Origin: a virus
Direction: 5' to 3' (one strand)
Virus record (IMG/VR): IMGVR_UViG_3300045911_000155
Span: 1 to 64,000 of that record
Length of the DNA: 64,000 nt
Part shown: positions 8,426-62,659 of the stretch, in pieces
Position numbering within the stretch: position 1 is the first letter of the stretch
How the letters are laid out: every line of letters begins with the position of its first letter
Notes under the pieces: generated by a model
What the model was told of the DNA's origin: nothing
The model's database searches: none
What the model saw: the letters and a program-made list of their open reading frames with translations, nothing else
Program-made: the position numbers and the translations under genes

Positions 8426-8487
8426 ATCGTCTCTCCATAGTCAGAATAGCAAGTCCTGACTTATATGTCAAGGGCTAAATATGCTTC

Positions 8488-15889: not shown

Positions 15890-15909
15890 GACGCTTCGTA
15901 TTTAGGGTT

Positions 15910-16001
15910 TGGTAGTGGGACCGGGATTCGAACCCGGATCGTGCGCTAATCAGGCGCTTCCCGCTTATAAGGCGGTCGTTTTGCCGTTAAACTATCCCAC
16001 C
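15910..16001 (-). tRNA. tRNA-Ile(UAU) with long variable arm
   Basis: acceptor GGTGGGA/TCCCACT, loop CT-TAT-AA, V-arm GCGC-CTGATTA-GCGC, TTCGAAT, A-CCA. Confidence 0.85.
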
Positions 16002-16017
16002 GTGATATAATCGCGGA

Positions 16018-16491
16018 ATGGAACAGATTGGCCCCACAGGAAACTACGATCTTGGCGCGAAACTCAATGAGAATGATCGCGGCGGCTTGAATGTCGCAGT
16101 CACTATCGTCGAAGGACACATCCTCATGGTTTTCGGCACCCAACTCGATTGGCTGGCGGGTGGACCGGAACACATGCTGGCGGTCGGGATGCGGCTTGGT
16201 CAGTTGGCGTTGAAGTTGAGCAATGGTGCGATCAACTTCGACCAATTGAACCTTGCGGCGTTCGATAGTGTTGATGGGGACAATCAGTTGCCCGGCGGGA
16301 TTGAAGTGACACTCAATCGGGAGAAGGGTTTGATCGAAACCAAACTCCCGGCCAACGTCGAAGCGTTGGCGTTCACGGCGCAAGGGGCGTTCGCCTATGG
16401 ATTGCGGCTGATGATGTGTGTGAAGGTCTTGCGTCCTGATTTGGTTCCGTTCTTGCCGGATCTGCCCGAATCAGAATTGAAGAAGTGGTAG
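16018..16491 (+). CDS. hypothetical protein (leaderless)
   Basis: TATAAT 6 nt upstream of ATG; antisense to the tRNA operon. Confidence 0.65.
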   Translation: MEQIGPTGNYDLGAKLNENDRGGLNVAVTIVEGHILMVFGTQLDWLAGGPEHMLAVGMRLGQLALKLSNGAINFDQLNLAAFDSVDGDNQLPGGIEVTLNREKGLIETKLPANVEALAFTAQGAFAYGLRLMMCVKVLRPDLVPFLPDLPESELKKW

Positions 16492-16563
16492 GCGCGGGGA
16501 GACTCGAACTCCCAAACACCGAATTTTAAGGACGGTAGGTCTGCCTGTTCCCGTCACGCGCCC
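16486..16563 (-). tRNA. tRNA-Leu(UAA), short variable loop
   Basis: GGGCGCG/CGCGCCT, loop CT-TAA-AA, TTCGAGT, A-CCA; anticodon stem only 3 bp. Confidence 0.75.
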
Positions 16564-16850
16564 ACAGTTGGCAGTCCACGCATTTCCCGGCGCTCTTTCT
16601 CCGTGAAGGGGAGAGTCAGTTCCGCGTCTGCATCGATGCCGTGCAACACTTTCAGATCCTTCGCCAATTCCATCGTCCACGTTCCCTTTAGCTGACGCGC
16701 ACGCGGCTTGACCAGCACTTTCGTGACGGTCATCGGAAAATTGAGTGCTTCGCCGCCGGGGAGCGGTCGTATCAGCGGCTTGGCTTTCACCGTTGTGCCC
16801 GCGATGGCACCGGCGATCATTCCGAATAGTCCGCGACGTGTGAATTTCAT
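16554..16850 (-). CDS. Tat-like signal fused to a major-capsid-protein fragment
   Basis: MKFTRRGLF N-terminus; 20/35 ungapped identity to gp23 residues 194-228 of this window. Confidence 0.8.
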   Translation of the reverse strand: MKFTRRGLFGMIAGAIAGTTVKAKPLIRPLPGGEALNFPMTVTKVLVKPRARQLKGTWTMELAKDLKVLHGIDADAELTLPFTEKERREMRGLPTVGA

Positions 16851-16879: not shown

Positions 16880-17233
16880 CTATTTGGTTTCGACCGGCAC
16901 ATCGGCCAGCAAGTCCAAGTACTTTTGCGGCACCATCGCCGGGTTGAGTACGATGGTCCGGTTCGCAAACATCAACGTGCCTTTGCGCGCCGTCAGCGTG
17001 ATCGGATGCTTCTTCGCCCATTCCGGGTCGTCATCATAGAAGCCGTCCCAATCGTCGTCCACGCCTTGCACCGTGATCCGGGCTTCGTCTTTGCGATAGG
17101 CGTTTTGTTTGATGCCGACGCGAACTACCTTGCCGATCCGAAGAGCGGCGCACCGGCCTAATGCGTGACCGTAGACGATGATCGCGCCCGGCTCAATCGG
17201 CTGTCCCATCTTGTCTTTGAGTGGTAGTTCCAT
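16880..17233 (-). CDS. hypothetical protein
   Basis: D..GQPIEPG..IVY motif; TAGAAT -10 upstream. Confidence 0.65.
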   Translation of the reverse strand: MELPLKDKMGQPIEPGAIIVYGHALGRCAALRIGKVVRVGIKQNAYRKDEARITVQGVDDDWDGFYDDDPEWAKKHPITLTARKGTLMFANRTIVLNPAMVPQKYLDLLADVPVETK

Positions 17234-17253
17234 TGATCCATTCTACGACGAAC

Positions 17254-17443
17254 TGGTGGGATAGCCGGGACTTGAACCCGGACAATGTTTTAGCATTGCG
17301 ACTTCAGGATACATTGGATCGGTTTGGCCGATCCCTACCCGCTTCCCTAGCGACCCTTACTCAGAGCCGGTTGGTGCATCTGGAACCCTACATCGCGCCC
17401 ACGCTCCGTTTTTCGTGCGCTCTGTCCGTTGAGCTACTATCCC
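17254..17443 (-). ncRNA. 190-nt tRNA-like RNA with large structured insertion
   Basis: acceptor GGGATAG/CTATCCC, D arm GCTC/GAGC, T arm CCGGG-TTCAAGT-CCCGG, A-CCA; about 135 nt lie between D and T arms. Confidence 0.8.
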
Positions 17444-17451
17444 AAATTCTT

Positions 17452-18580: not shown

Positions 18581-18669
18581 TGGCAACGGATAGCGGGATT
18601 TGAACCCGCAGTGGCTTTTTAGGCCGACTGTTTTTGGACAGTTGTGTTTACCATTTCACGATAACCGTT
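18581..18669 (-). tRNA. atypical 8/5 tRNA-like RNA, G73, long V arm, 6-nt anticodon loop
   Basis: AACGGTTA/TATCCGTT acceptor, ACTGT-CCAAAA-ACAGT, GGC-CTAAAAA-GCC, TTCAAAT, G-CCA. Confidence 0.7.
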
Positions 18670-19221: not shown

Positions 19222-19252
19222 TATTTATACAGACGTTCAGGCCCGATGTCAA
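19222..19252 (-). promoter_or_regulatory. dual promoter of the tRNA operon
   Basis: TTGACA-17-TATAAA overlapping T4 late consensus TATAAATA. Confidence 0.8.
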
Positions 19253-34145: not shown

Positions 34146-35016
34146 GACTAACAGGTATTTAGGCCGGTGGGTTCTGCATTGCCGCGATTTCCATTCGGGT
34201 CTTTGCCAACCATTCGACCAGCATAGCCGGGGTGACCGTCGTGAGCATGCCAGACGTGCCAAGCCACTGCCAGATACCGACTGTCATGCCGTCGATTTCC
34301 GCTTCGGTCAGTTCGTTCTTGACCGCGCCGGATACTTTTCCGATCCGGTAGGTCATATTGACGATGAACCGCATCATCAACAAGGACCGTTGCGTCGGTG
34401 TGGTGTCTTTGCTGATCTGTAGAATGTTGGGCGGTTGCATGGTCATTTGCATGCCCGCCGGGAGATCGCAGTACTGGACGACGAAACTATTGTTCTCATC
34501 GCCTAGTGTCAAGATGTCAGGGAAGTGAAGTTTAGCGGACGACGGGTCGGGTAACCCATCGGACAAAACCTTGAATTCGTTCGATGTTTCGGATGTCATC
34601 ACGATTATATACAACGACCGAAACCCGTTCTTGAACGATTCTCCCGCGCGTGCGCGTGCGCACGATGTAGAAGGCTTGTACTCCCCGGCGACGCCCGGCA
34701 AACGCCACAGGCGCGGCCAGAAGCGTCAAAAAGGCATGTCTGGTCATGTGTCCATTCTATCGCCGGGGTGATTTTCCCGCAAGGAACTCTTCGTAGGTCA
34801 CACTGACGCCGCGCGGCCCGACGCCGGTGACTAGCAAGGTTCCGGCGGACAGGCTGACGGTATGGATGCCATCCCGCCGTTTTCGGCCCGTAAACGGCTT
34901 GTACGTGATCGTTCCCTTCCCGGTGCCCTGACAGTGCAAGCACACCACGGCGACGCCTTGTGGCTCCGCAAAACCGCGATAGACGCCGGTTCCTTGACAG
35001 GACGGGCACTCAATAT

Positions 35017-35406
35017 TCAATAGTCATCTGTTGCGACATCAAAAGCCTCTACTAACAATTGTCCACTGTGTTCGAGCAACCACTGTTCCCGATACTCTTC
35101 GATGATCGGGAGAACTTCCGCCGCGTATCGGCTGTGAACGTATGCGTGATGCGTCGGGCATATCGGAATCAAGTTTTCTGGCCGGTTGTCGTTGTGGTTT
35201 CCATTCGCATGGTGAACGGCGACGATCTTCCGTTCACCGCACACGACGCATTTCTTTTCGTGGTAGGCGAAACAGGTAGACCGATAGGCATCTTCCGACC
35301 AGTTTGGATTCCGTTGCTTCGTGCGGAAGAGCCGATTGGCGCACGACCGGGAGCATGTCGTGTTGCCGGGTTTGACATCTTTGCCACAGATAGGACAGTA
35401 GACCAC
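35017..35406 (-). CDS. HNH endonuclease
   Basis: CVVCG..VHH.NGNH.DN..ENL..ICPTHH; GTG start after TAAACA. Confidence 0.85.
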   Translation of the reverse strand: MVYCPICGKDVKPGNTTCSRSCANRLFRTKQRNPNWSEDAYRSTCFAYHEKKCVVCGERKIVAVHHANGNHNDNRPENLIPICPTHHAYVHSRYAAEVLPIIEEYREQWLLEHSGQLLVEAFDVATDDY

Positions 35407-35425
35407 ACATCTGTTTAGGTGCGGC

Positions 35426-35556
35426 AAAAGCAAAGCCCGGCATTTCTGCCGGGCCTTGGTGTGATTTCAATGAGCAAGTGGGTGACTGTCGGCTGGTCTA
35501 TGTCAAGTAGGTAACCAACAATCTTCGGCTCATCTACTACTTCTCCGATTGTACCA
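35426..35556 (-). ncRNA. Y-RNA-like sRNA with own promoter and terminator
   Basis: TAAATA at 35562-35567; GATGAGC-CGAAG opposite CACTT-GCTCATT; 11-bp upper stem; terminator 35426-35455. Confidence 0.6.
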
Positions 35557-35564
35557 CGTTGTAT

Positions 35565-35960
35565 TTAGGCGAACAACTCCATCTGATCGCCGGGTGGCGG
35601 TACGGGTTCAGAAGCCTTCTCCGGGAATTTGGCGCGGTATGCGTCCACGGACAAGCTCTTCCACTTGAGGGGCTTCGCCGGGTTCTGTTGATGGAACGCC
35701 TTCAGCTTCGCCGTGAATTCGTTGAACGCCGGGCCGGGCTGAACCGTGTCTTCGGTGAGCACGATGACGTTGTTGGAAACGAGATAATCCCATACCGGTA
35801 CATTGGTCATGGACCAACGTGGTGCCGGTAGGATGCTCAGCATTTCCAAAACGATTTCGGGCGGGTACACCTTTCCGTCAAGAGTCACGAACCGCAACAA
35901 GCGGGGTTGAAAATGGACCTCTTCGACCAAGCTGAAATCAGGCAGTTGCATATTCACCAT
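35565..35960 (-). CDS. hypothetical protein
   Basis: ORF after late-like TAACTA. Confidence 0.55.
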   Translation of the reverse strand: MVNMQLPDFSLVEEVHFQPRLLRFVTLDGKVYPPEIVLEMLSILPAPRWSMTNVPVWDYLVSNNVIVLTEDTVQPGPAFNEFTAKLKAFHQQNPAKPLKWKSLSVDAYRAKFPEKASEPVPPPGDQMELFA

Positions 35961-37598: not shown

Positions 37599-37805
37599 AT
37601 GAAGATCAAAAACCTCTTGAAAGACATTCTCGAAGGCTCCGTCCAAGTGCCGGACCAAGTGTGGAGTTTTGCATGGGACCGGGGAAACCGCCAGAACGTC
37701 CGGTTCCCCAAGGACGCATACGAAGCGATCCGGCTGAACGATGAATTTATGCTGGTCCGGGTGCCGAAGCAATCGCGCCCGGCTGAAGAGGCAAAGACCG
37801 CGTGA
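37599..37805 (+). CDS. small hypothetical protein
   Basis: TATAAT upstream; GTGA-coupled to next gene. Confidence 0.6.
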   Translation: MKIKNLLKDILEGSVQVPDQVWSFAWDRGNRQNVRFPKDAYEAIRLNDEFMLVRVPKQSRPAEEAKTA

Positions 37806-38026
37806 CGCTTCAGGACGCCATCAAGCGCGGCTGGTGTCCGTATCTGTTCCGGGAAGTGGAACGGGAGAACAAAGCAAAGCGGCGGCTAGATCCTTTGATG
37901 GGTCGAATCAGGGATTTATTGCCCGGACTGATCCATCATCAGATTGCGCCGCCGCAACCTTTGCTTGGAGAGACTTCGCGAATTTTTAGCCTTCGCGTTC
38001 GGCCTTCATCATTTCCTTCAGGCTAG
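37802..38026 (+). CDS. stand-alone Gol-like major-capsid fragment protein
   Basis: 14/37 identity (1 gap) to gp23 residues 73-109 of this window. Confidence 0.7.
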   Translation: MTLQDAIKRGWCPYLFREVERENKAKRRLDPLMGRIRDLLPGLIHHQIAPPQPLLGETSRIFSLRVRPSSFPSG

Positions 38027-59838: not shown

Positions 59839-61173
59839 TTAGGTGAGGTTGATGACCTTGACCAAGCGGTAGTACGGGTTGCTGGCGCTGATGATGTCGC
59901 CCGAAGCGTTCGTGTAGTACGGGTTCGACACAAGGCCGTAACGGGTACGGAACGCAATCTTCGGCTGGAGGGTGTTTTCACCGACCGCACGAACCATCTG
60001 GAGCGGGATGTAGGGGCAGTAGAAGAAGCCCGCGTCGTAGGCATTAGTACCTTTGTACCCTACCATTAGGAGTTCGGTATTAAGGTCGCCCGTGTTGTCG
60101 AAGTACGGATCAACGAAGACCTTGTAGCGACCGTTGATAACGCCCGCGAAGGTGTTGCCCGTGTCATCGACCGTCAGGTTGGTGTTCAACGCCGGGGCGT
60201 AGTTCAGGACACCCGCCATGTGCAACGCGGACGCAACGTCCGAAGAGCACACGATGAAGTTACCCTTACCACGACGGGTGTCACGACCGATCTGGTTCGC
60301 GTCACGCTCGACTTGGAACATCAAGCCCTTGAACTTTTCAGCCAACCAACGACCGTTGGAGTCCGTGTCAAGGTCAAACACACCAGCGTTAGCGGTGCCC
60401 TTCTGAGCGCCCGGCTTCGCGATGTAGTACAAGGTGCGAACAACTTCACGGTTGATTTCGGCCAAGATTTCCGTGGAGAGAATCGAAGCCAATTCCGTTT
60501 CGGCGTCCATACCGTGCAGGGCCTTAAGATCCTGCGCCAGTTCGACAGTGTATTCTGCCTTCAGTGCGCGGGTCTTCGCCGTGACGGTAACCTTGTCGAT
60601 GAAGATCGACATTTCGTTGAACGACGGCTGGTTCGTTTCGCCAAGGACTTCACCTTGCAGCGTGGTCATACCGCGACCAGTTGCGTAACCACCGGCAAAC
60701 GGGTTGCTACCGCTGTGGGCAGTACCGTTGTGACCGGCGTTCGGTGCGCCCGGCTTCTGACCGGCGAAGTCCGTGTCGGATTCCGACATGAAGGCTTCGT
60801 TGGTCTGGTTGTAGTTGGTGGACGAAGACTGCGGGCCGTACTTCGAACGCATCGCGAAGATGAGTCCAGTCGGACCAGTCATCGGCTGAACACCACAGAT
60901 GTCGTATGCAACAAGGTTCGGCATCGCGCGACGCACCATCGAAATCATGATGGGGTCCCACGCACCGATGTTTCCGCCGCCCATCGTGTTGCTGCCTTCC
61001 GACAACAACTGTGCCTTCTGTTCCTTCAGATCACGATATTGATTTTCGAGGATCTGAATGGTGACATCGCGACGGTGTGCATCGACCTTGCCCTGAAGAT
61101 CGGTGATCTTCGGCATGTCCGTGTGATCAATGATTTTCTGCCATTTTGAGCGTAGTGCAGGTGAGAGGTTCAT
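59839..61173 (-). CDS. gp23: major capsid protein
   Basis: DICGVQPMTGPTGLIFAMR, RALKAEYTVELAQDLKALHG.DAE.EL, FYCPY.PL, RTRYG. Confidence 0.98.
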   Translation of the reverse strand: MNLSPALRSKWQKIIDHTDMPKITDLQGKVDAHRRDVTIQILENQYRDLKEQKAQLLSEGSNTMGGGNIGAWDPIMISMVRRAMPNLVAYDICGVQPMTGPTGLIFAMRSKYGPQSSSTNYNQTNEAFMSESDTDFAGQKPGAPNAGHNGTAHSGSNPFAGGYATGRGMTTLQGEVLGETNQPSFNEMSIFIDKVTVTAKTRALKAEYTVELAQDLKALHGMDAETELASILSTEILAEINREVVRTLYYIAKPGAQKGTANAGVFDLDTDSNGRWLAEKFKGLMFQVERDANQIGRDTRRGKGNFIVCSSDVASALHMAGVLNYAPALNTNLTVDDTGNTFAGVINGRYKVFVDPYFDNTGDLNTELLMVGYKGTNAYDAGFFYCPYIPLQMVRAVGENTLQPKIAFRTRYGLVSNPYYTNASGDIISASNPYYRLVKVINLT

Positions 61174-61207: not shown

Positions 61208-62659
61208 TTAGCGCTGGCTCTTGTTCAACGTTTTCACGTAGAGCGCGATGTCTTCCGAAAGAGGCTCAGCATCAGCGGCCTTCGGCGCGGTCTTCTTCTG
61301 ATCCTGTTCGGTCAGAGTGCCCTTCGCCTTTTCCTTCGGGAAGTACGATTCCTTGAGCGTGGTCAGCGCGCTGGCAAACTGAGTGCTGTTCTGGAAGGCG
61401 ATACCTTCCGCCAACTTGCTCAGACGATCAGCTTGCGTAGCGGTCAAACCGGTGGAAGCCTTGCGGACCATTTCCGTGCGGCGGTAGCGGGTCAAGGATT
61501 CACGCAACTTCATGTTCTCCTTGGCGGATTCGTTGAGACGGCCTTCGAGCTTGGACAACTTCTTGCCCATGACCTTGAGAACATCGACCTTCGATTGCGG
61601 AACTTCGATGTAGTGTTCAACGAACAGCTTCTTCAACCCGGACAGGAAGTCTTCGGCCAACTCAGCGCGGATACCGGCTTCAACGGCCAAACGATTTTCC
61701 TTCAACCACTGCGAAGAAACGTAGGTCAGGTAGCGGTCAACCTGTTCCGACAACTTCGCTTCATGTGCGGCAATGCGCGCGTCAGACTTCTTCTTCAACA
61801 GCGCATACGCTTCCTTCAACTTCTTCGACGCTTCTTCAGCAACACGCTTGCGGGTCGCAGCGGCGCGGGTCTTGACAGCGGCTTCGAACACAACGGACGC
61901 CTTCTTGCGGAAGTCTTCCGGCAAGCTAGCTTCGCCGAAGATCGCCTTCTCATCGTCGGTCACTTCGTCGTCGTCGCCTTCGGTGACTTGCAGCTTCGGT
62001 TCCGGCGGCTCCGGTTCGGTGATGCCGATTTCGCCCGGCTGAACGTCTTCCTTCACATCAGGATCGCCGTCGCCGTCCTTGTCCAGCTTCTTCTTCAGGA
62101 AGTCAGGCATGTCGTCCTTGTCTTCCTTCACCTTCTTGCCCTTCACCGGCTTCTTGGATTCCTTGACCTTCTTCTTGGTCTTGGATTCCGCGACAACTTC
62201 GTCGTCGTCCTTGTCTTCGTCTTCGGCCACAACGTCGTCTTCGTCGTTGTCGTCATCTTCCGACAGTTCGCCTTCCGGCTTGTCGGGATCGCCTTCGGCT
62301 TCCTTCAAACGAGCGATCATTTCGGAGAACGTCTTGTCAAGGTCGTCGTCTTCGTCGGCATCTTCCGATACAACGTCGTCTTCTTCCTTGTCGTCGTCTT
62401 CCGTCACGATTTCATCGTCTTCGTCAGCATCGGCGTCTTCGACAACTTCGTCGTCGCTCATGTCGTCAACGTCGAAATCATCTTCTGCGACCATCTTGTC
62501 AGCGTCATCTTCTTCCGCTTCCATCGGCCACTTCTTGTCGATTGCGTTTGCTTGCGGAACGTCGGCTTGTTTCACGTCCGCTGAGAAGTCAGCGGGGTAG
62601 TTACCAGCCGCCGTAGCTTCCTTGAGCATTTCGAGAATTTTGCTTTCAAAAGCACCCAT
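61208..62659 (-). CDS. gp22: prohead core scaffold protein
   Basis: F..KA..VFEAAV, YL.YV...W..EN..AV..GI..E..E.F..GLK.LF.EH, ESYF; long acidic N-terminus. Confidence 0.93.
   Translation of the reverse strand: MGAFESKILEMLKEATAAGNYPADFSADVKQADVPQANAIDKKWPMEAEEDDADKMVAEDDFDVDDMSDDEVVEDADADEDDEIVTEDDDKEEDDVVSEDADEDDDLDKTFSEMIARLKEAEGDPDKPEGELSEDDDNDEDDVVAEDEDKDDDEVVAESKTKKKVKESKKPVKGKKVKEDKDDMPDFLKKKLDKDGDGDPDVKEDVQPGEIGITEPEPPEPKLQVTEGDDDEVTDDEKAIFGEASLPEDFRKKASVVFEAAVKTRAAATRKRVAEEASKKLKEAYALLKKKSDARIAAHEAKLSEQVDRYLTYVSSQWLKENRLAVEAGIRAELAEDFLSGLKKLFVEHYIEVPQSKVDVLKVMGKKLSKLEGRLNESAKENMKLRESLTRYRRTEMVRKASTGLTATQADRLSKLAEGIAFQNSTQFASALTTLKESYFPKEKAKGTLTEQDQKKTAPKAADAEPLSEDIALYVKTLNKSQR

What the first reader, a model, noticed from the sequence alone, without database searches (positions are those of the whole stretch)
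16554..16850. Second capsid-fragment gene: Tat-like signal fused to the most conserved gp23 segment, embedded in the tRNA operon
Seen: the N-terminus MKFTRRGLFGMIAGAIAG has a twin-arginine consensus. It is followed by KVLVKPRARQLKGTWTMELAKDLKVLHGIDADAEL, 20/35 ungapped identities to gp23 residues 194-228. The stop codon lies inside tRNA-Leu(UAA). Inference: with 37802-38026 this suggests a family of capsid-epitope decoys covering two different gp23 regions. This one may be membrane-tethered or exported, to titrate membrane-bound capsid sensors or to anchor prohead assembly. Divergence with a preserved frame argues against a recent junk duplication.
Basis: partly seen in the sequence, partly recalled or inferred. 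Interest (0 to 1): 0.85.

Follow-up and report, generated by a model that had tools for sequence, protein, structure and literature searches.

The report
Tat-signal capsid-fragment phage gene family
A large T4-like phage from hot-spring mats carries a small, conserved gene that joins a twin-arginine export signal to a 40-residue copy of its own major capsid protein's capsomer-contact element, one member of an undescribed family whose function is unknown.

Summary
Window 16554-16850(-) encodes a 98-aa protein whose residues 39-79 match Pfam Gp23 above its curated cut-off. They are 20/37 identical to the window's own major capsid protein, and the stop codon lies inside a tRNA gene.

It is not a decaying remnant. 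A 224-kb relative keeps the gene at the same place with dN/dS 0.18, about 0.12 in both the signal and the capsid-like part.

A profile search of 1.84 billion proteins found at least 17 clusters of small proteins with the same build. The RR pair is nearly invariant, 13 of 17 pass a TATFIND-like rule, and 5 of 17 hit the TAT_signal profiles.

The capsid part equals T4 gp23 254-290. This segment holds the A268, A275, D285 and D287 head-length sites and lies at or beside the short acidic P-domain helix at the quasi-threefold contacts between capsomers.

The gene lies in a sigma70-type promoter unit with the tRNAs, not behind the phage's late motif. The relative also has RR-signal genes carrying a second gp23 segment and a portal segment.

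Best reading: an early protein targeted by Tat to the cell envelope, built from a capsid interface. Its function is untested, and no paper describing it was found.

The parts
16554..16850 (-). Small gene (98 codons plus stop): RR signal, linker, gp23-like segment and variable tail
   Evidence: ORF and translation. Syntenic ortholog in G001 with dN/dS 0.18. Protein clusters P0002-P0004 and P0006 at 71-99% identity.
16779..16850 (-). Signal-peptide region, residues 1-24: n-region MKFTRR, h-region GLFGMIAGAIAGTTV, c-region ending VKA before KP
   Evidence: R5 is invariant and R6 is kept in 16 of 17 family members. It passes the TATFIND-like rule. dN/dS is 0.12 for codons 1-25. The model predicts a helix at residues 5-20. 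The h-region has mean Kyte-Doolittle hydrophobicity 1.61.
16824..16841 (-). Twin-arginine motif T-R-R-G-L-F (residues 4-9)
   Evidence: Read from the sequence. The family consensus is [ST]RRxF[LF], and some members read NRRGFLK.
16737..16778 (-). Pro-rich linker, residues 25-38, weakly constrained
   Evidence: dN/dS is 0.79 for alignment columns 26-42. Length varies across the family. pLDDT is about 55.
16614..16736 (-). gp23-derived segment, residues 39-79: basic beta-strand plus short acidic helices. It equals own gp23 190-230 and T4 gp23 254-290.
   Evidence: Pfam Gp23 E 5.8e-9. The genome search places the match at 16614-16736. BLASTP to own gp23. Mapping to T4 through PDB chain 8t9r_A and to the ptg sites in PMC9546572. 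dN/dS 0.12. pLDDT 76-89 with helices at 63-70 and 74-79.
16557..16610 (-). Lineage-specific C-terminal tail, residues 81-98. It is absent from G001, P0003 and P0004, and its last codons overlap the tRNA.
   Evidence: Alignments and DNA comparison with L005.
16489..16563 (-). tRNA gene with anticodon UAA and a short variable loop. Its 5' end is the third base of codon 96 of the small gene.
   Evidence: Rfam RF00005 at 34.6 bits, gathering score 29. Not called by ARAGORN. Sequence read.
19224..19252 (-). Sigma70-type promoter TTGACA-17 nt-TATAAA(T) with an A/T-rich upstream tract, heading the tRNA array that contains the small gene
   Evidence: Sequence. Conserved in G001 at 208794(+). No CTAAATA late motif lies between it and 15905.
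16880..17233 (-). Upstream co-oriented gene (117 aa, PHROG 2596, unknown function). It ends 29 nt before the small gene.
   Evidence: dN/dS against G001 is 0.07.
59839..61173 (-). gp23 major capsid protein gene, the parent family of the fragment
   Evidence: Pfam Gp23 E 1.4e-141 and PHROG 138 E 5.7e-150. PDB T4 gp23 E 4e-75.
60490..60600 (-). Segment of gp23 (residues 192-228) that the small protein copies
   Evidence: BLASTP 20/37 identities. The genome search locates the match at 60484-60606.
37802..38026 (+). Signal-less small ORF copying gp23 residues 73-111 (= T4 gp23 92-130, N-terminal conserved region holding ptg sites A94 and G97)
   Evidence: BLASTP 14/39 identities, E 5e-7. phmmer E 0.012. 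Its frame is kept in G001 through in-frame indels.
15899..15905 (-). CTAAATA, the phage's putative late-promoter motif, marking the start of the next transcription unit after the tRNA array
   Evidence: 7 matches in the window against 1.05 expected. Two of them lie 30-45 nt upstream of the gp23 and gp22 starts.

Best explanation
The ORF is a real, conserved gene of a large T4-like phage, with three parts.

(1) Residues 1-24 form a twin-arginine (Tat-type) signal peptide. It has the motif TRRGLF, a weakly hydrophobic Gly/Ala-rich h-region, basic residues in the c-region and a V/A-K-A cleavage-type motif.

(2) A short Pro-rich linker follows and is barely constrained.

(3) A 40-residue copy of one element of the major capsid protein comes next. 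This is the basic P-domain beta-strand plus the short acidic helix region, equal to T4 gp23 254-290. In T4 capsids this region lies at or beside the inter-capsomer contacts around the quasi-threefold axes, and it carries the A268, A275, D285 and D287 head-length mutations.

Shown here: the gene is under purifying selection in both the signal and the capsid-like part. The same build recurs in at least 17 divergent protein clusters. A nearly complete relative has two more genes that join an RR plus hydrophobic N-terminal segment to other head-protein segments, namely the gp23 P-loop region and the portal.

Inferred: it is transcribed early by host RNA polymerase from the sigma70-type promoter that heads the tRNA array. 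The host Tat pathway takes it to or through the inner membrane, where it is either released into the periplasm or stays anchored by an uncleaved signal.

Guess at the mechanism, with low certainty: the capsid-derived strand and helix serve as a ready-made interaction surface. They could mediate self-association as at a capsomer junction, pairing with the second fragment protein, or binding of a partner that recognises this conserved capsid surface. The task would be an early one at the envelope, such as superinfection exclusion or neutralising an envelope-associated host factor. It is not a building block of the capsid.
For: Real gene:
- The ortholog in G001 (L005:8001-8252) is syntenic within the same tRNA array.
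- dN/dS is 0.18 overall, 0.12 in the signal, 0.79 in the linker and 0.12 in the gp23-like part. Neighbouring genes give 0.07-0.20. Fisher p is 4e-8.

Capsid origin:
- Pfam Gp23 E 5.8e-9 and 20/37 identities to own gp23.
- All 17 family members hit Pfam Gp23.

Tat signal:
- R5 is invariant and R6 is kept in 16 of 17 members, while the rest of the signal varies.
- Some members read NRRGFLK or TRRGFLR.
- 13 of 17 pass a TATFIND-like rule, against about 1% of background ORFs.
- 5 of 17 hit Pfam TAT_signal and 5 of 17 hit TIGR01409, and other weak hits are to Tat-signal families such as Rieske, formate dehydrogenase and HybA.
- The h-region has mean hydrophobicity 1.6 and K22/K24 sit in the c-region. 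From established knowledge of Tat signals, low hydrophobicity and c-region basic residues act as Sec-avoidance features.

Structural meaning:
- P0001 residues 42-78 align to T4 gp23 254-290. Residues A268, A275, D285 and D287 fall in register, and DADAEL is identical.
- PMC9546572 places these sites close to the short, negatively charged P-domain helix at the quasi-threefold inter-capsomer contacts.
- The family keeps a basic strand (net +4.1) and an acidic helix (net -2.4).

Early unit:
- TTGACA-17-TATAAAT lies at 19252-19224(-) and is conserved in G001. The late motif CTAAATA stands before gp23 and gp22 but not before this gene.
- The homolog P0009 lies between the DNA polymerase and the CCA-adding enzyme and UvsX.

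A set of such genes:
- G001 80248-80571 has an RR plus hydrophobic segment with gp23 369-413 (Pfam Gp23 E 3.8e-12). It overlaps by 4 nt a lipoprotein gene with weak Cor and spanin PHROG hits.
- G001 35304-35591 has an RR signal plus portal residues 259-321.
- The single-chain member P0102 joins the strand and helix directly to the GYFYTPYVPL motif, with the A domain deleted.
Against: - No signal-peptide predictor (SignalP or TatP) could be run. P0001 itself does not hit the TAT_signal profiles.
- Basic residues flank the hydrophobic stretch on both sides, so the topology is not fixed by sequence.
- Head proteins have no known partner in the periplasm, so an envelope function for a capsid-like surface has no precedent.
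- Signal-less gp23-fragment ORFs exist in the same window (37802-38026) and in other large phages, including the cultured XacN1 ORF451. Fragments therefore can presumably also act in the cytoplasm.
- The monomer model is only moderately confident (pLDDT 67, pTM 0.26) and the strand has no partner.
- Early timing rests on promoter motifs only.
- Only two genomes give DNA for dN/dS.
Confidence: 0.55

Rival explanations
1. Membrane-tethered decoy. The RR plus hydrophobic N-terminus holds the protein at the cytoplasmic face of the inner membrane or at the TatBC receptor. The capsid-like surface binds and blocks a host immune sensor that recognises conserved surfaces of unassembled head proteins, in the way Lit recognises the Gol peptide of gp23. 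Alternatively it drags the sensor to the membrane.
For: - The fragments copy the most conserved gp23 segments, which are buried at capsomer junctions and so exposed only in free subunits.
- One sibling fragment (37802-38026) covers T4 92-130, which by my recollection includes the Gol region 93-122.
- Portal and capsid proteins, the two sources of the fragments found here, are known triggers of abortive-infection sensors. This is established knowledge, not tested here.
- Early expression would put a decoy in place before late proteins appear.
Against: - No host sensor is known or found here.
- A working Tat signal would remove the decoy from the cytoplasm.
- A copy of a trigger would be expected to activate a sensor unless it is altered. 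The only consistent change seen is W for Y.
- This fragment is not the Gol region.
Confidence: 0.2
2. Capsid-assembly modulator. The fragment docks on the edges of gp23 capsomers in place of a neighbouring capsomer. It would cap them, localise them at the membrane where T4-type proheads start, tune head size, or poison the capsids of co-infecting relatives.
For: - The copied element is at or beside the charge-pair contact between capsomers, and it holds the T4 head-length (ptg) sites.
- The three gp23 fragment types of this phage lineage map one-to-one onto the three T4 ptg clusters: 66-97, 268-287 and 457-461.
- Both the basic strand and the acidic helix are kept.
- Several members are closest to the capsid protein of a particular lineage. 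P0100 and P0102 are 67-72% identical to the LR756511 capsid protein.
Against: - The promoter context is early, not late.
- The RR signal is conserved far beyond what a plain anchor needs.
- The ptg clusters coincide with the most conserved parts of gp23, so the match may simply reflect conservation.
- The tree of 54 columns cannot tell co-evolution from common origin.
Confidence: 0.12
3. The same protein, but the N-terminus is an ordinary Sec signal, a signal-anchor-release (SAR) domain or a plain membrane anchor, and the RR pair is only the positive-inside flank.
For: - P0001 gives no hit to the TAT_signal profiles.
- Gly/Ala-rich weakly hydrophobic segments are also typical of SAR domains, such as that of the T4 RI antiholin (my knowledge).
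- The second fragment family has a longer hydrophobic stretch of 19 residues and a poorer motif, RRDMW.
Against: - Near-invariance of both arginines and of the [ST]RRxF[LF] pattern over 17 divergent clusters.
- Five members reach the Tat profiles.
- Basic residues directly after the h-region disfavour Sec (established knowledge).
Confidence: 0.15
4. Non-functional remnant of a partial gp23 duplication whose frame is open by chance.
For: It is short, and homology is limited to 40 residues of a gene present in the same genome.
Against: - dN/dS is 0.18 with p 4e-8.
- Start, frame and RR motif are conserved across clusters down to 28% identity.
- 17 clusters were found among 1.84 billion proteins.
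Confidence: 0.02

Closest known systems
T4 gp23 / gp24 (Pfam PF07068, HK97-fold major capsid and vertex proteins)
   Same: The 40-residue core is homologous to gp23, above the Pfam cut-off. It keeps the basic strand and acidic short-helix region, including an exact DADAEL.
   Different: Only about 10% of the fold is present. There is no N-arm, E-loop, insertion domain, A domain or P-loop. It carries an export signal, and its context points to early rather than late expression. gp24 is a full-length paralog, whereas this is a fragment.
Small early envelope proteins of T4: Spackle (Sp, 97 aa, periplasmic), Imm (83 aa, membrane) and RI antiholin (97 aa, SAR domain)
   Same: Similar size, an N-terminal export or anchor segment, a probably early gene, and encoded by a T4-type phage. 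The comparison rests on my knowledge of T4.
   Different: PHROG and Pfam scans gave no hit to any of these families. None of them is derived from a virion protein, and none is known to use Tat.
Gol peptide of gp23 and the Lit protease (e14)
   Same: A short, highly conserved gp23 segment that acts on its own as a ligand. This is the conceptual basis of the decoy idea.
   Different: Gol is gp23 93-122 (my recollection). This gene copies 254-290. Gol is not a separate gene. The window's other fragment (37802-38026) is the one that covers the Gol region.
Tat signal peptides, including uncleaved Tat signal anchors such as Rieske Fe-S proteins (Pfam PF10518, PF10399; TIGR01409)
   Same: The [ST]RRxF[LF] motif, a weakly hydrophobic h-region and a basic c-region. 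Five of 17 family members hit PF10518 or TIGR01409, and one hits the Rieske Tat-signal model.
   Different: Known Tat passengers are usually cofactor-bearing or oligomeric enzymes. Here the passenger is a 55-75 residue piece of a capsid protein.
Cor-type lipoproteins / two-component spanins (for the sibling gene pair in G001)
   Same: The second fragment gene (N-terminal hydrophobic segment, about 70-residue C-terminal part) overlaps by 4 nt a small lipoprotein gene with an LAGC lipobox. That gene has weak PHROG hits to Cor (E 5e-4) and to Rz-like spanins (E 0.05-0.09). This is the gene arrangement of an i-spanin/o-spanin pair or of an exclusion module.
   Different: The hits are weak. No holin or endolysin lies nearby, and the neighbours are UvsY, UvsW and gp55. 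The window's own gene has no lipoprotein neighbour.

Membership tests
Pfam PF07068 Gp23 (T4-type major capsid protein) | Sequence match to the family profile above the curated cut-off | tested here: met
   36.3 bits against a cut-off of 24.4, E 5.8e-9, residues 39-79 on profile positions 135-175. All 17 family members match.
Pfam PF07068 Gp23 (T4-type major capsid protein) | Full HK97-type fold (N-arm, E-loop, P and A domains) able to form capsomers | tested here: not met
   Only 41 of 376 profile positions are covered. The protein has 98 residues. The model shows one unpaired extended segment and two short helices. It is a derivative of the family, not a capsid protein.
Tat (twin-arginine) signal peptide | Consensus motif [ST]-R-R-x-F-L-K near the N-terminus | tested here: met
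   T-R-R-G-L-F at residues 4-9. R5 is invariant and R6 is kept in 16 of 17 members. Some members read NRRGFLK.
Tat (twin-arginine) signal peptide | Uncharged h-region of 13 or more residues with moderate hydrophobicity, followed by a c-region with a small-x-small cleavage motif, often basic | tested here: met
   There are 15 uncharged residues with mean Kyte-Doolittle hydrophobicity 1.61, followed by V-K-A before K-P. The rule was written from my memory of TATFIND. 13 of 17 members pass, against about 1% of background ORFs.
Tat (twin-arginine) signal peptide | Match to curated profiles PF10518 / TIGR01409 | tested here: inconclusive
   P0001 has no hit. Five of 17 members hit PF10518 (best E 0.02) and five of 17 hit TIGR01409 (best E 0.0033).
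Tat (twin-arginine) signal peptide | Export that depends on TatABC and on the RR pair | not testable with these tools
   This needs reporter fusions in tat+ and tat- hosts.
T4 superinfection-exclusion or lysis-control small proteins (Sp, Imm, RI) | Sequence or profile similarity to those families | tested here: not met
   The PHROG and Pfam scans of P0001 return only the major head protein family.
Gol-type gp23 peptide (Lit activator) | Corresponds to gp23 residues 93-122 of T4 | tested here: not met
   P0001 maps to T4 254-290. The Gol coordinates are from memory.

The most novel reading that the evidence does not exclude
Large T4-like phages carry a previously unrecognised class of small, early genes. 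These genes fuse Tat export or anchor signals to copies of the buried assembly interfaces of their own head proteins: the capsid quasi-threefold strand and helix, the capsid P-loop, and the portal. These interface mimics would act as a system. They might intercept host immune sensors that recognise unassembled head proteins and remove them to the membrane or periplasm. Alternatively they might assemble into a capsomer-junction-like complex in the envelope that excludes rival phages.
Probability: 0.25. Interest if true: 0.9.

Novelty: categorically new. Interest (0 to 1): 0.8.

Why it matters
Capsid and portal proteins are the main molecular patterns that bacterial abortive-infection systems sense. 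They are also the parts that phages can change least. A conserved phage gene family that cuts out exactly the buried contact elements of these proteins and attaches a twin-arginine export signal has not been described. Three literature searches found nothing like it.

If the fragments are decoys, they would be a new anti-defence principle and would point to unknown sensors. If they act on capsomer contacts, they would be a natural tool for controlling capsid assembly or size. If they work in the periplasm, they show a virion protein being reused as an envelope factor, and they would be the first phage use of the Tat pathway that I know of.

The finding also has a practical side. Gene callers clip the signal, as IMG's call starts at Met11. 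Short Gp23-domain proteins in databases are easily dismissed as truncated capsid genes. A cultured phage, XacN1 with ORF451 and ORF261, offers an entry point for experiments on the signal-less forms.

Tried and rejected
- **Complex prediction:** the mature parts of the two G001 fragment proteins (P0003 25-83 with the second-family protein 39-107) gave no verdict, score 0.00. This is no evidence either way.
- **Foldseek:** the P0001 model against the PDB gave no match at E <= 0.001. The top weak rows are T4 gp23 chains at E about 2 over 27 columns.
- **The look-up of encoding contigs:** The genomic contexts of most distant family members (P0008, P0010-P0014, P0017, P0019, P0025, P0065, P0100, P0102) therefore could not be read.
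- **The search for related loci:**
  - A2 in metagenome contigs and in genome contigs found nothing.
  - A3 was too diverse to search with.
  - P0065 in viral contigs found nothing.
  - P0102 and P0008 found only full-length capsid genes.
- **tblastn against 50,697 phage records:** P0001, P0008, P0011 and P0102 were tried. All listed best matches lie in capsid genes. No cultured phage with the RR-signal form was seen among the rows shown.
- **Sequencing runs:** no RNA holder is listed. The two runs labelled RNA-Seq are probably DNA and are contigs only, so expression remains untested.
- **Tree of the 54-column segment:** unresolved. Monophyly of the small-protein family is not rejected (p-AU 0.28). 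A clade of the P0001 group with its own capsid protein is not rejected either. One origin against several origins, and the donor lineage, both stay open.
- **NCBIfam scan of P0001, P0003 and P0004:** no hits.
- **Extension of homology into the signal:** I considered that the gp23 homology extends through the signal, because tblastn to cyanophage gp23 covers residues 7-79. The first 35 aligned positions are at about 23% identity and the Pfam profile starts at residue 39, so I treat this as unproven.
- **TATAAATA at 19222-19229 as a T4-type late promoter:** rejected. It is the -10 region of a TTGACA-17 sigma70-type promoter, and the structural genes carry CTAAATA instead.
- **ESM Atlas:** it lists clusters of 58-88-aa 'Gp23 domain-containing' proteins. 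I could not tell fragment genes from truncated capsid calls.
Full report
**What the window is.** The window is the first 64 kb of an 80.5-kb IMG/VR virus record, G000, estimated 47% complete. It encodes a T4-type head module. gp23 lies at 59839-61173(-) (Pfam Gp23 E 1.4e-141), and a gp22-type scaffold lies at 61208-62659(-). No cultured phage has a capsid protein more than 59% identical. G000 is colinear with positions 224488-140827 of a 224-kb, 96%-complete IMG/VR genome, G001. Sequencing runs from hot-spring and microbial-mat metagenomes hold nearly all of the region. More distant relatives occur in water, wastewater and rhizosphere runs.

**The observation.** The ORF at 16554-16850(-) gives 98 residues. 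Residues 39-79 match Pfam Gp23 above the curated cut-off (E 5.8e-9) and PHROG 138. Residues 42-78 are 20/37 identical, without gaps, to the phage's own gp23 residues 192-228. The N-terminus has T-R-R-G-L-F, then 15 uncharged Gly/Ala-rich residues, then V-K-A before K-P. The stop codon lies in a tRNA gene at 16489-16563(-). Rfam calls this tRNA (34.6 bits) and ARAGORN does not, and its anticodon loop reads UAA. The gene sits among at least 12 co-oriented tRNA genes.

**It is a gene, not a remnant.** G001 has the ortholog at the same place in the same tRNA array (L005:8001-8252).
- Over 82 aligned codons dN/dS is 0.18. It is 0.12 in the signal, 0.79 in the linker and 0.12 in the capsid-like part. 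Four neighbouring genes give 0.07-0.20.
- The excess of synonymous change is significant (Fisher p 4e-8).
- Protein clusters at 71-99% identity exist in other assemblies, and all start MKFTRRGLF.
- The tail after ELTLP is not conserved. In G001 the ORF stops 7 nt before the tRNA, so the overlap with the tRNA is incidental.
- In G000 the tRNA's first base is the third base of codon 96. RNase P cutting would therefore leave a message without a stop codon. This is inference.

**A wider family.** A profile of the close homologs was searched against 1.84 billion representative proteins. Besides many full-length and truncated capsid proteins, it returned small proteins that match from profile position 1. 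These are P0008-P0014, P0017, P0019, P0025, P0065, P0100 and P0102.
- In the 17-member alignment the invariant positions are R5, R52, L54, E61, D65 and L66. R6, W58, H70 and L78 are nearly invariant.
- The N-termini vary but keep [ST]RRxF[LF]. Two of them read NRRGFLK and TRRGFLR.
- 13 of 17 pass a TATFIND-like rule that I wrote from memory. About 1% of all start-defined ORFs of G000 pass it.
- All 17 hit Pfam Gp23. Five hit Pfam TAT_signal and five hit TIGR01409, weakly. The other weak hits are to families that carry Tat signals.
- P0001 itself does not reach those profiles.
- The h-region is weakly hydrophobic (1.61) and the c-region is basic. From established knowledge these are Tat hallmarks and disfavour Sec.
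- IMG's own gene call for the window starts at Met11 and hides the motif.

**Which part of the capsid protein is copied.** Through the alignment of the window's gp23 to the T4 gp23 PDB chains, P0001 residues 42-78 correspond to T4 gp23 254-290. The residue identities check in register: A268, A275, D285 and D287 fall on A, A, D and D of T4, and DADAEL is identical in P0001. Fang et al. 2022 (PMC9546572) report three relevant points.
- Capsomers are held together near the quasi-threefold axes by charge contacts between a short, negatively charged P-domain helix and a positively charged region of the P-domain strands.
- These contacts persist through expansion.
- One group of head-length mutations (A268V, A275T, D285V, D287V/N) lies close to that helix.

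The small protein therefore copies the strand and the region at or beside that acidic helix. Across the family the strand stays basic (net +4.1, against +2.7 in capsid proteins) and the helix stays acidic (-2.4, against -2.9). An AlphaFold model from the 17-row alignment has mean pLDDT 67. It shows a helix at 5-20 (the signal), an extended unpaired stretch at 41-60, and helices at 63-70 and 74-79 with pLDDT 76-89. This looks like an element that needs a partner, not a free-standing domain.

**Sibling genes.** Scanning G000 and G001 with the Pfam Gp23 profile and with phmmer found further fragments.
- (a) Window 37802-38026(+) copies gp23 residues 73-111, which equal T4 92-130 and hold length sites A94 and G97. 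It has no signal, and its frame is kept in G001.
- (b) G001 80248-80571(+) encodes 107 aa. A gp23-like N-terminal strand is followed by MTRRDMW, a 19-residue hydrophobic stretch ending AVQA, then gp23 369-413 and the C-terminal YYRKV motif (Pfam Gp23 E 3.8e-12). This region holds the T4 P-loop sites T457, R460 and G461. Six homolog clusters at 52-97% identity keep the RR segment. The gene overlaps by 4 nt a lipoprotein gene with an LAGC lipobox and weak Cor and spanin PHROG hits. It lies between uvsY and uvsW. That part of G001 is not covered by the incomplete G000.
- (c) G001 35304-35591(-) encodes 95 aa. It starts MTRRNLFAVIAGAFAF...TTGC, and residues 29-94 are 34% identical to portal gp20 residues 259-321. 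The evidence is a blastp E of 3e-6 in the two-genome ORF set, Pfam Portal_T4 E 0.015 and PHROG portal E 0.0025. Few homologs were found.

The lineage thus has at least three genes that join an RR plus hydrophobic N-terminal segment to a head-protein segment. The three gp23 fragment types fall on the three T4 length-mutation clusters. I note that these are also the most conserved parts of gp23.

The distant member P0102 joins the strand and spine helix directly to GYFYTPYVPL, with the A domain deleted. It is 65% identical over 69 residues to the capsid protein of the huge phage LR756511. Signal-less fragments occur in other huge phages. They also occur in the cultured Xanthomonas phage XacN1, where ORF451 is a 74-aa strand-plus-helix copy and ORF261 ends with the N-terminal conserved gp23 segment. 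The XacN1 paper does not mention these ORFs.

**Expression context.** A TTGACA-17 nt-TATAAA(T) promoter with an A/T-rich upstream tract lies at 19252-19224(-), directly upstream of the tRNA array. It is conserved in G001. G001 has about 20 such 11/12 matches, where I estimate about 3 by chance. The structural genes instead carry CTAAATA 30-45 nt upstream. This motif occurs 7 times in the window against 1.05 expected, and the next one on this strand comes only after the array at 15899-15905. The homolog P0009 lies between the DNA polymerase and the CCA-adding enzyme and UvsX. I infer early expression by host RNA polymerase. This is not shown, because no RNA data could be obtained.

**Origin.** Many T4-superfamily capsid proteins have W where the window's gp23 has Y. 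Sixteen of 17 small proteins have W, even those whose nearest capsid protein has Y. Mean identity within the small-protein family (0.46) equals its identity to capsid proteins (0.45). Some members are nearest to a lineage-specific capsid protein. The 54-column tree is unresolved, and AU tests reject neither a single origin nor a sister relation of the P0001 group to its own capsid gene.

**Interpretation.** Firmly supported:
- It is a conserved gene.
- It has a capsid-derived core from the capsomer-junction region.
- It has a conserved Tat-type N-terminus.
- It belongs to a broader set of head-protein fragment genes.

Inferred: export or anchoring through Tat, and early timing.

Open: the function. 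I favour an envelope-level role in which the capsid element serves as an interaction surface (confidence 0.55 for the overall statement, much lower for any specific task). Three points lead me there: the signal is conserved as strictly as the passenger, the gene is in an early unit, and a sibling is coupled to a Cor-like lipoprotein. A neutral remnant is excluded. A test of pairing between the two gp23 fragment proteins gave no verdict (see Tried and rejected). Three literature searches found no description of such genes.

Noticed in passing
L053:1384-1707(+) = G001 80248-80571; next gene L053:1704-1967(+): A second gp23-fragment family. It has a gp23-like N-terminal strand, MTRRDMW plus a 19-residue hydrophobic stretch ending AVQA, then the gp23 P-loop region and C-terminal motif. 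It overlaps by 4 nt a small lipoprotein gene (LAGC lipobox) with weak PHROG hits to Cor superinfection exclusion and Rz-like spanins. The arrangement resembles an i-/o-spanin pair or an exclusion module. The region is missing from the incomplete G000.
   Followed up: partly
L057:15304-15591(-) = G001 35304-35591: A 95-aa ORF with an RR signal (MTRRNLFAVIAGAFAF) ending in a lipobox-like TTGC. Its residues 29-94 resemble portal protein gp20 residues 259-321 (34% identity; weak Pfam and PHROG portal hits). It is a head-protein fragment gene not derived from gp23.
   Followed up: partly
window 37802-38026(+): A signal-less 74-aa ORF copying gp23 73-111, which equals T4 92-130 and covers length sites A94 and G97 and, by my recollection, the Gol region. 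Its frame is kept in G001 despite in-frame indels.
   Followed up: partly
L085:1751-1975(+) and L086:998-1783(-) (Xanthomonas phage XacN1, AP018399.1): The cultured jumbo phage XacN1 has ORF451 (74 aa), a signal-less copy of the strand and short-helix segment with W. It also has ORF261 (262 aa), whose C-terminus is the conserved N-terminal gp23 segment. Both are annotated only as hypothetical and could serve as experimental handles.
   Followed up: partly
L073, L074, L075 (IMG/VR huge phages G002, G003): Further small ORFs with pieces of gp23 (profile positions 290-332, 6-32 and 169-196) without signals, in 336-350-kb phage genomes. Capsid-fragment ORFs seem to recur in large T4-like phages.
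   Followed up: no
window 19224-19252(-); CTAAATA at 8475, 15899, 34156, 35562, 37566, 61205, 62694: A near-consensus sigma70 promoter heads the tRNA array. CTAAATA is strongly over-represented (7 against 1.05 expected) and precedes gp23 and gp22, so it is probably the late-promoter motif of this phage.
   Followed up: partly
window 17234-17445(-): A stretch with a tRNA-like T-arm (about 17255-17290) that neither ARAGORN nor Rfam calls. A related contig in a drinking-water run lacks exactly 17235-17444 (a 210-base deletion with 13 other letters in its place). It may be a decayed or intron-bearing tRNA.
   Followed up: no
window 16563-16565(-): The tRNA's first base is the third base of codon 96 of the small gene. 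5' processing of the tRNA would therefore remove the stop codon of the ORF in this phage, but not in G001. Translation and tRNA maturation may compete.
   Followed up: no
window 34535-34756(-) = G001 191932-192153(+): A 73-aa ORF starting MTRRTFVQLFSLSTLSG, 79% identical between the two phages. It overlaps other long ORFs, and I could not tell whether it is a gene.
   Followed up: no
window 15910-16001(-) and 18581-18669(-): ARAGORN calls a tRNA-Ile(UAU) 92 nt long and a tRNA of undetermined type with a two-base anticodon. The array holds unusual tRNAs, as another first-stage note also says.
   Followed up: no
window 16018-16491(+): A conserved 157-aa gene (dN/dS 0.17) on the opposite strand, wedged between two tRNA genes of the array. 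It has no Pfam or PHROG hit.
   Followed up: no
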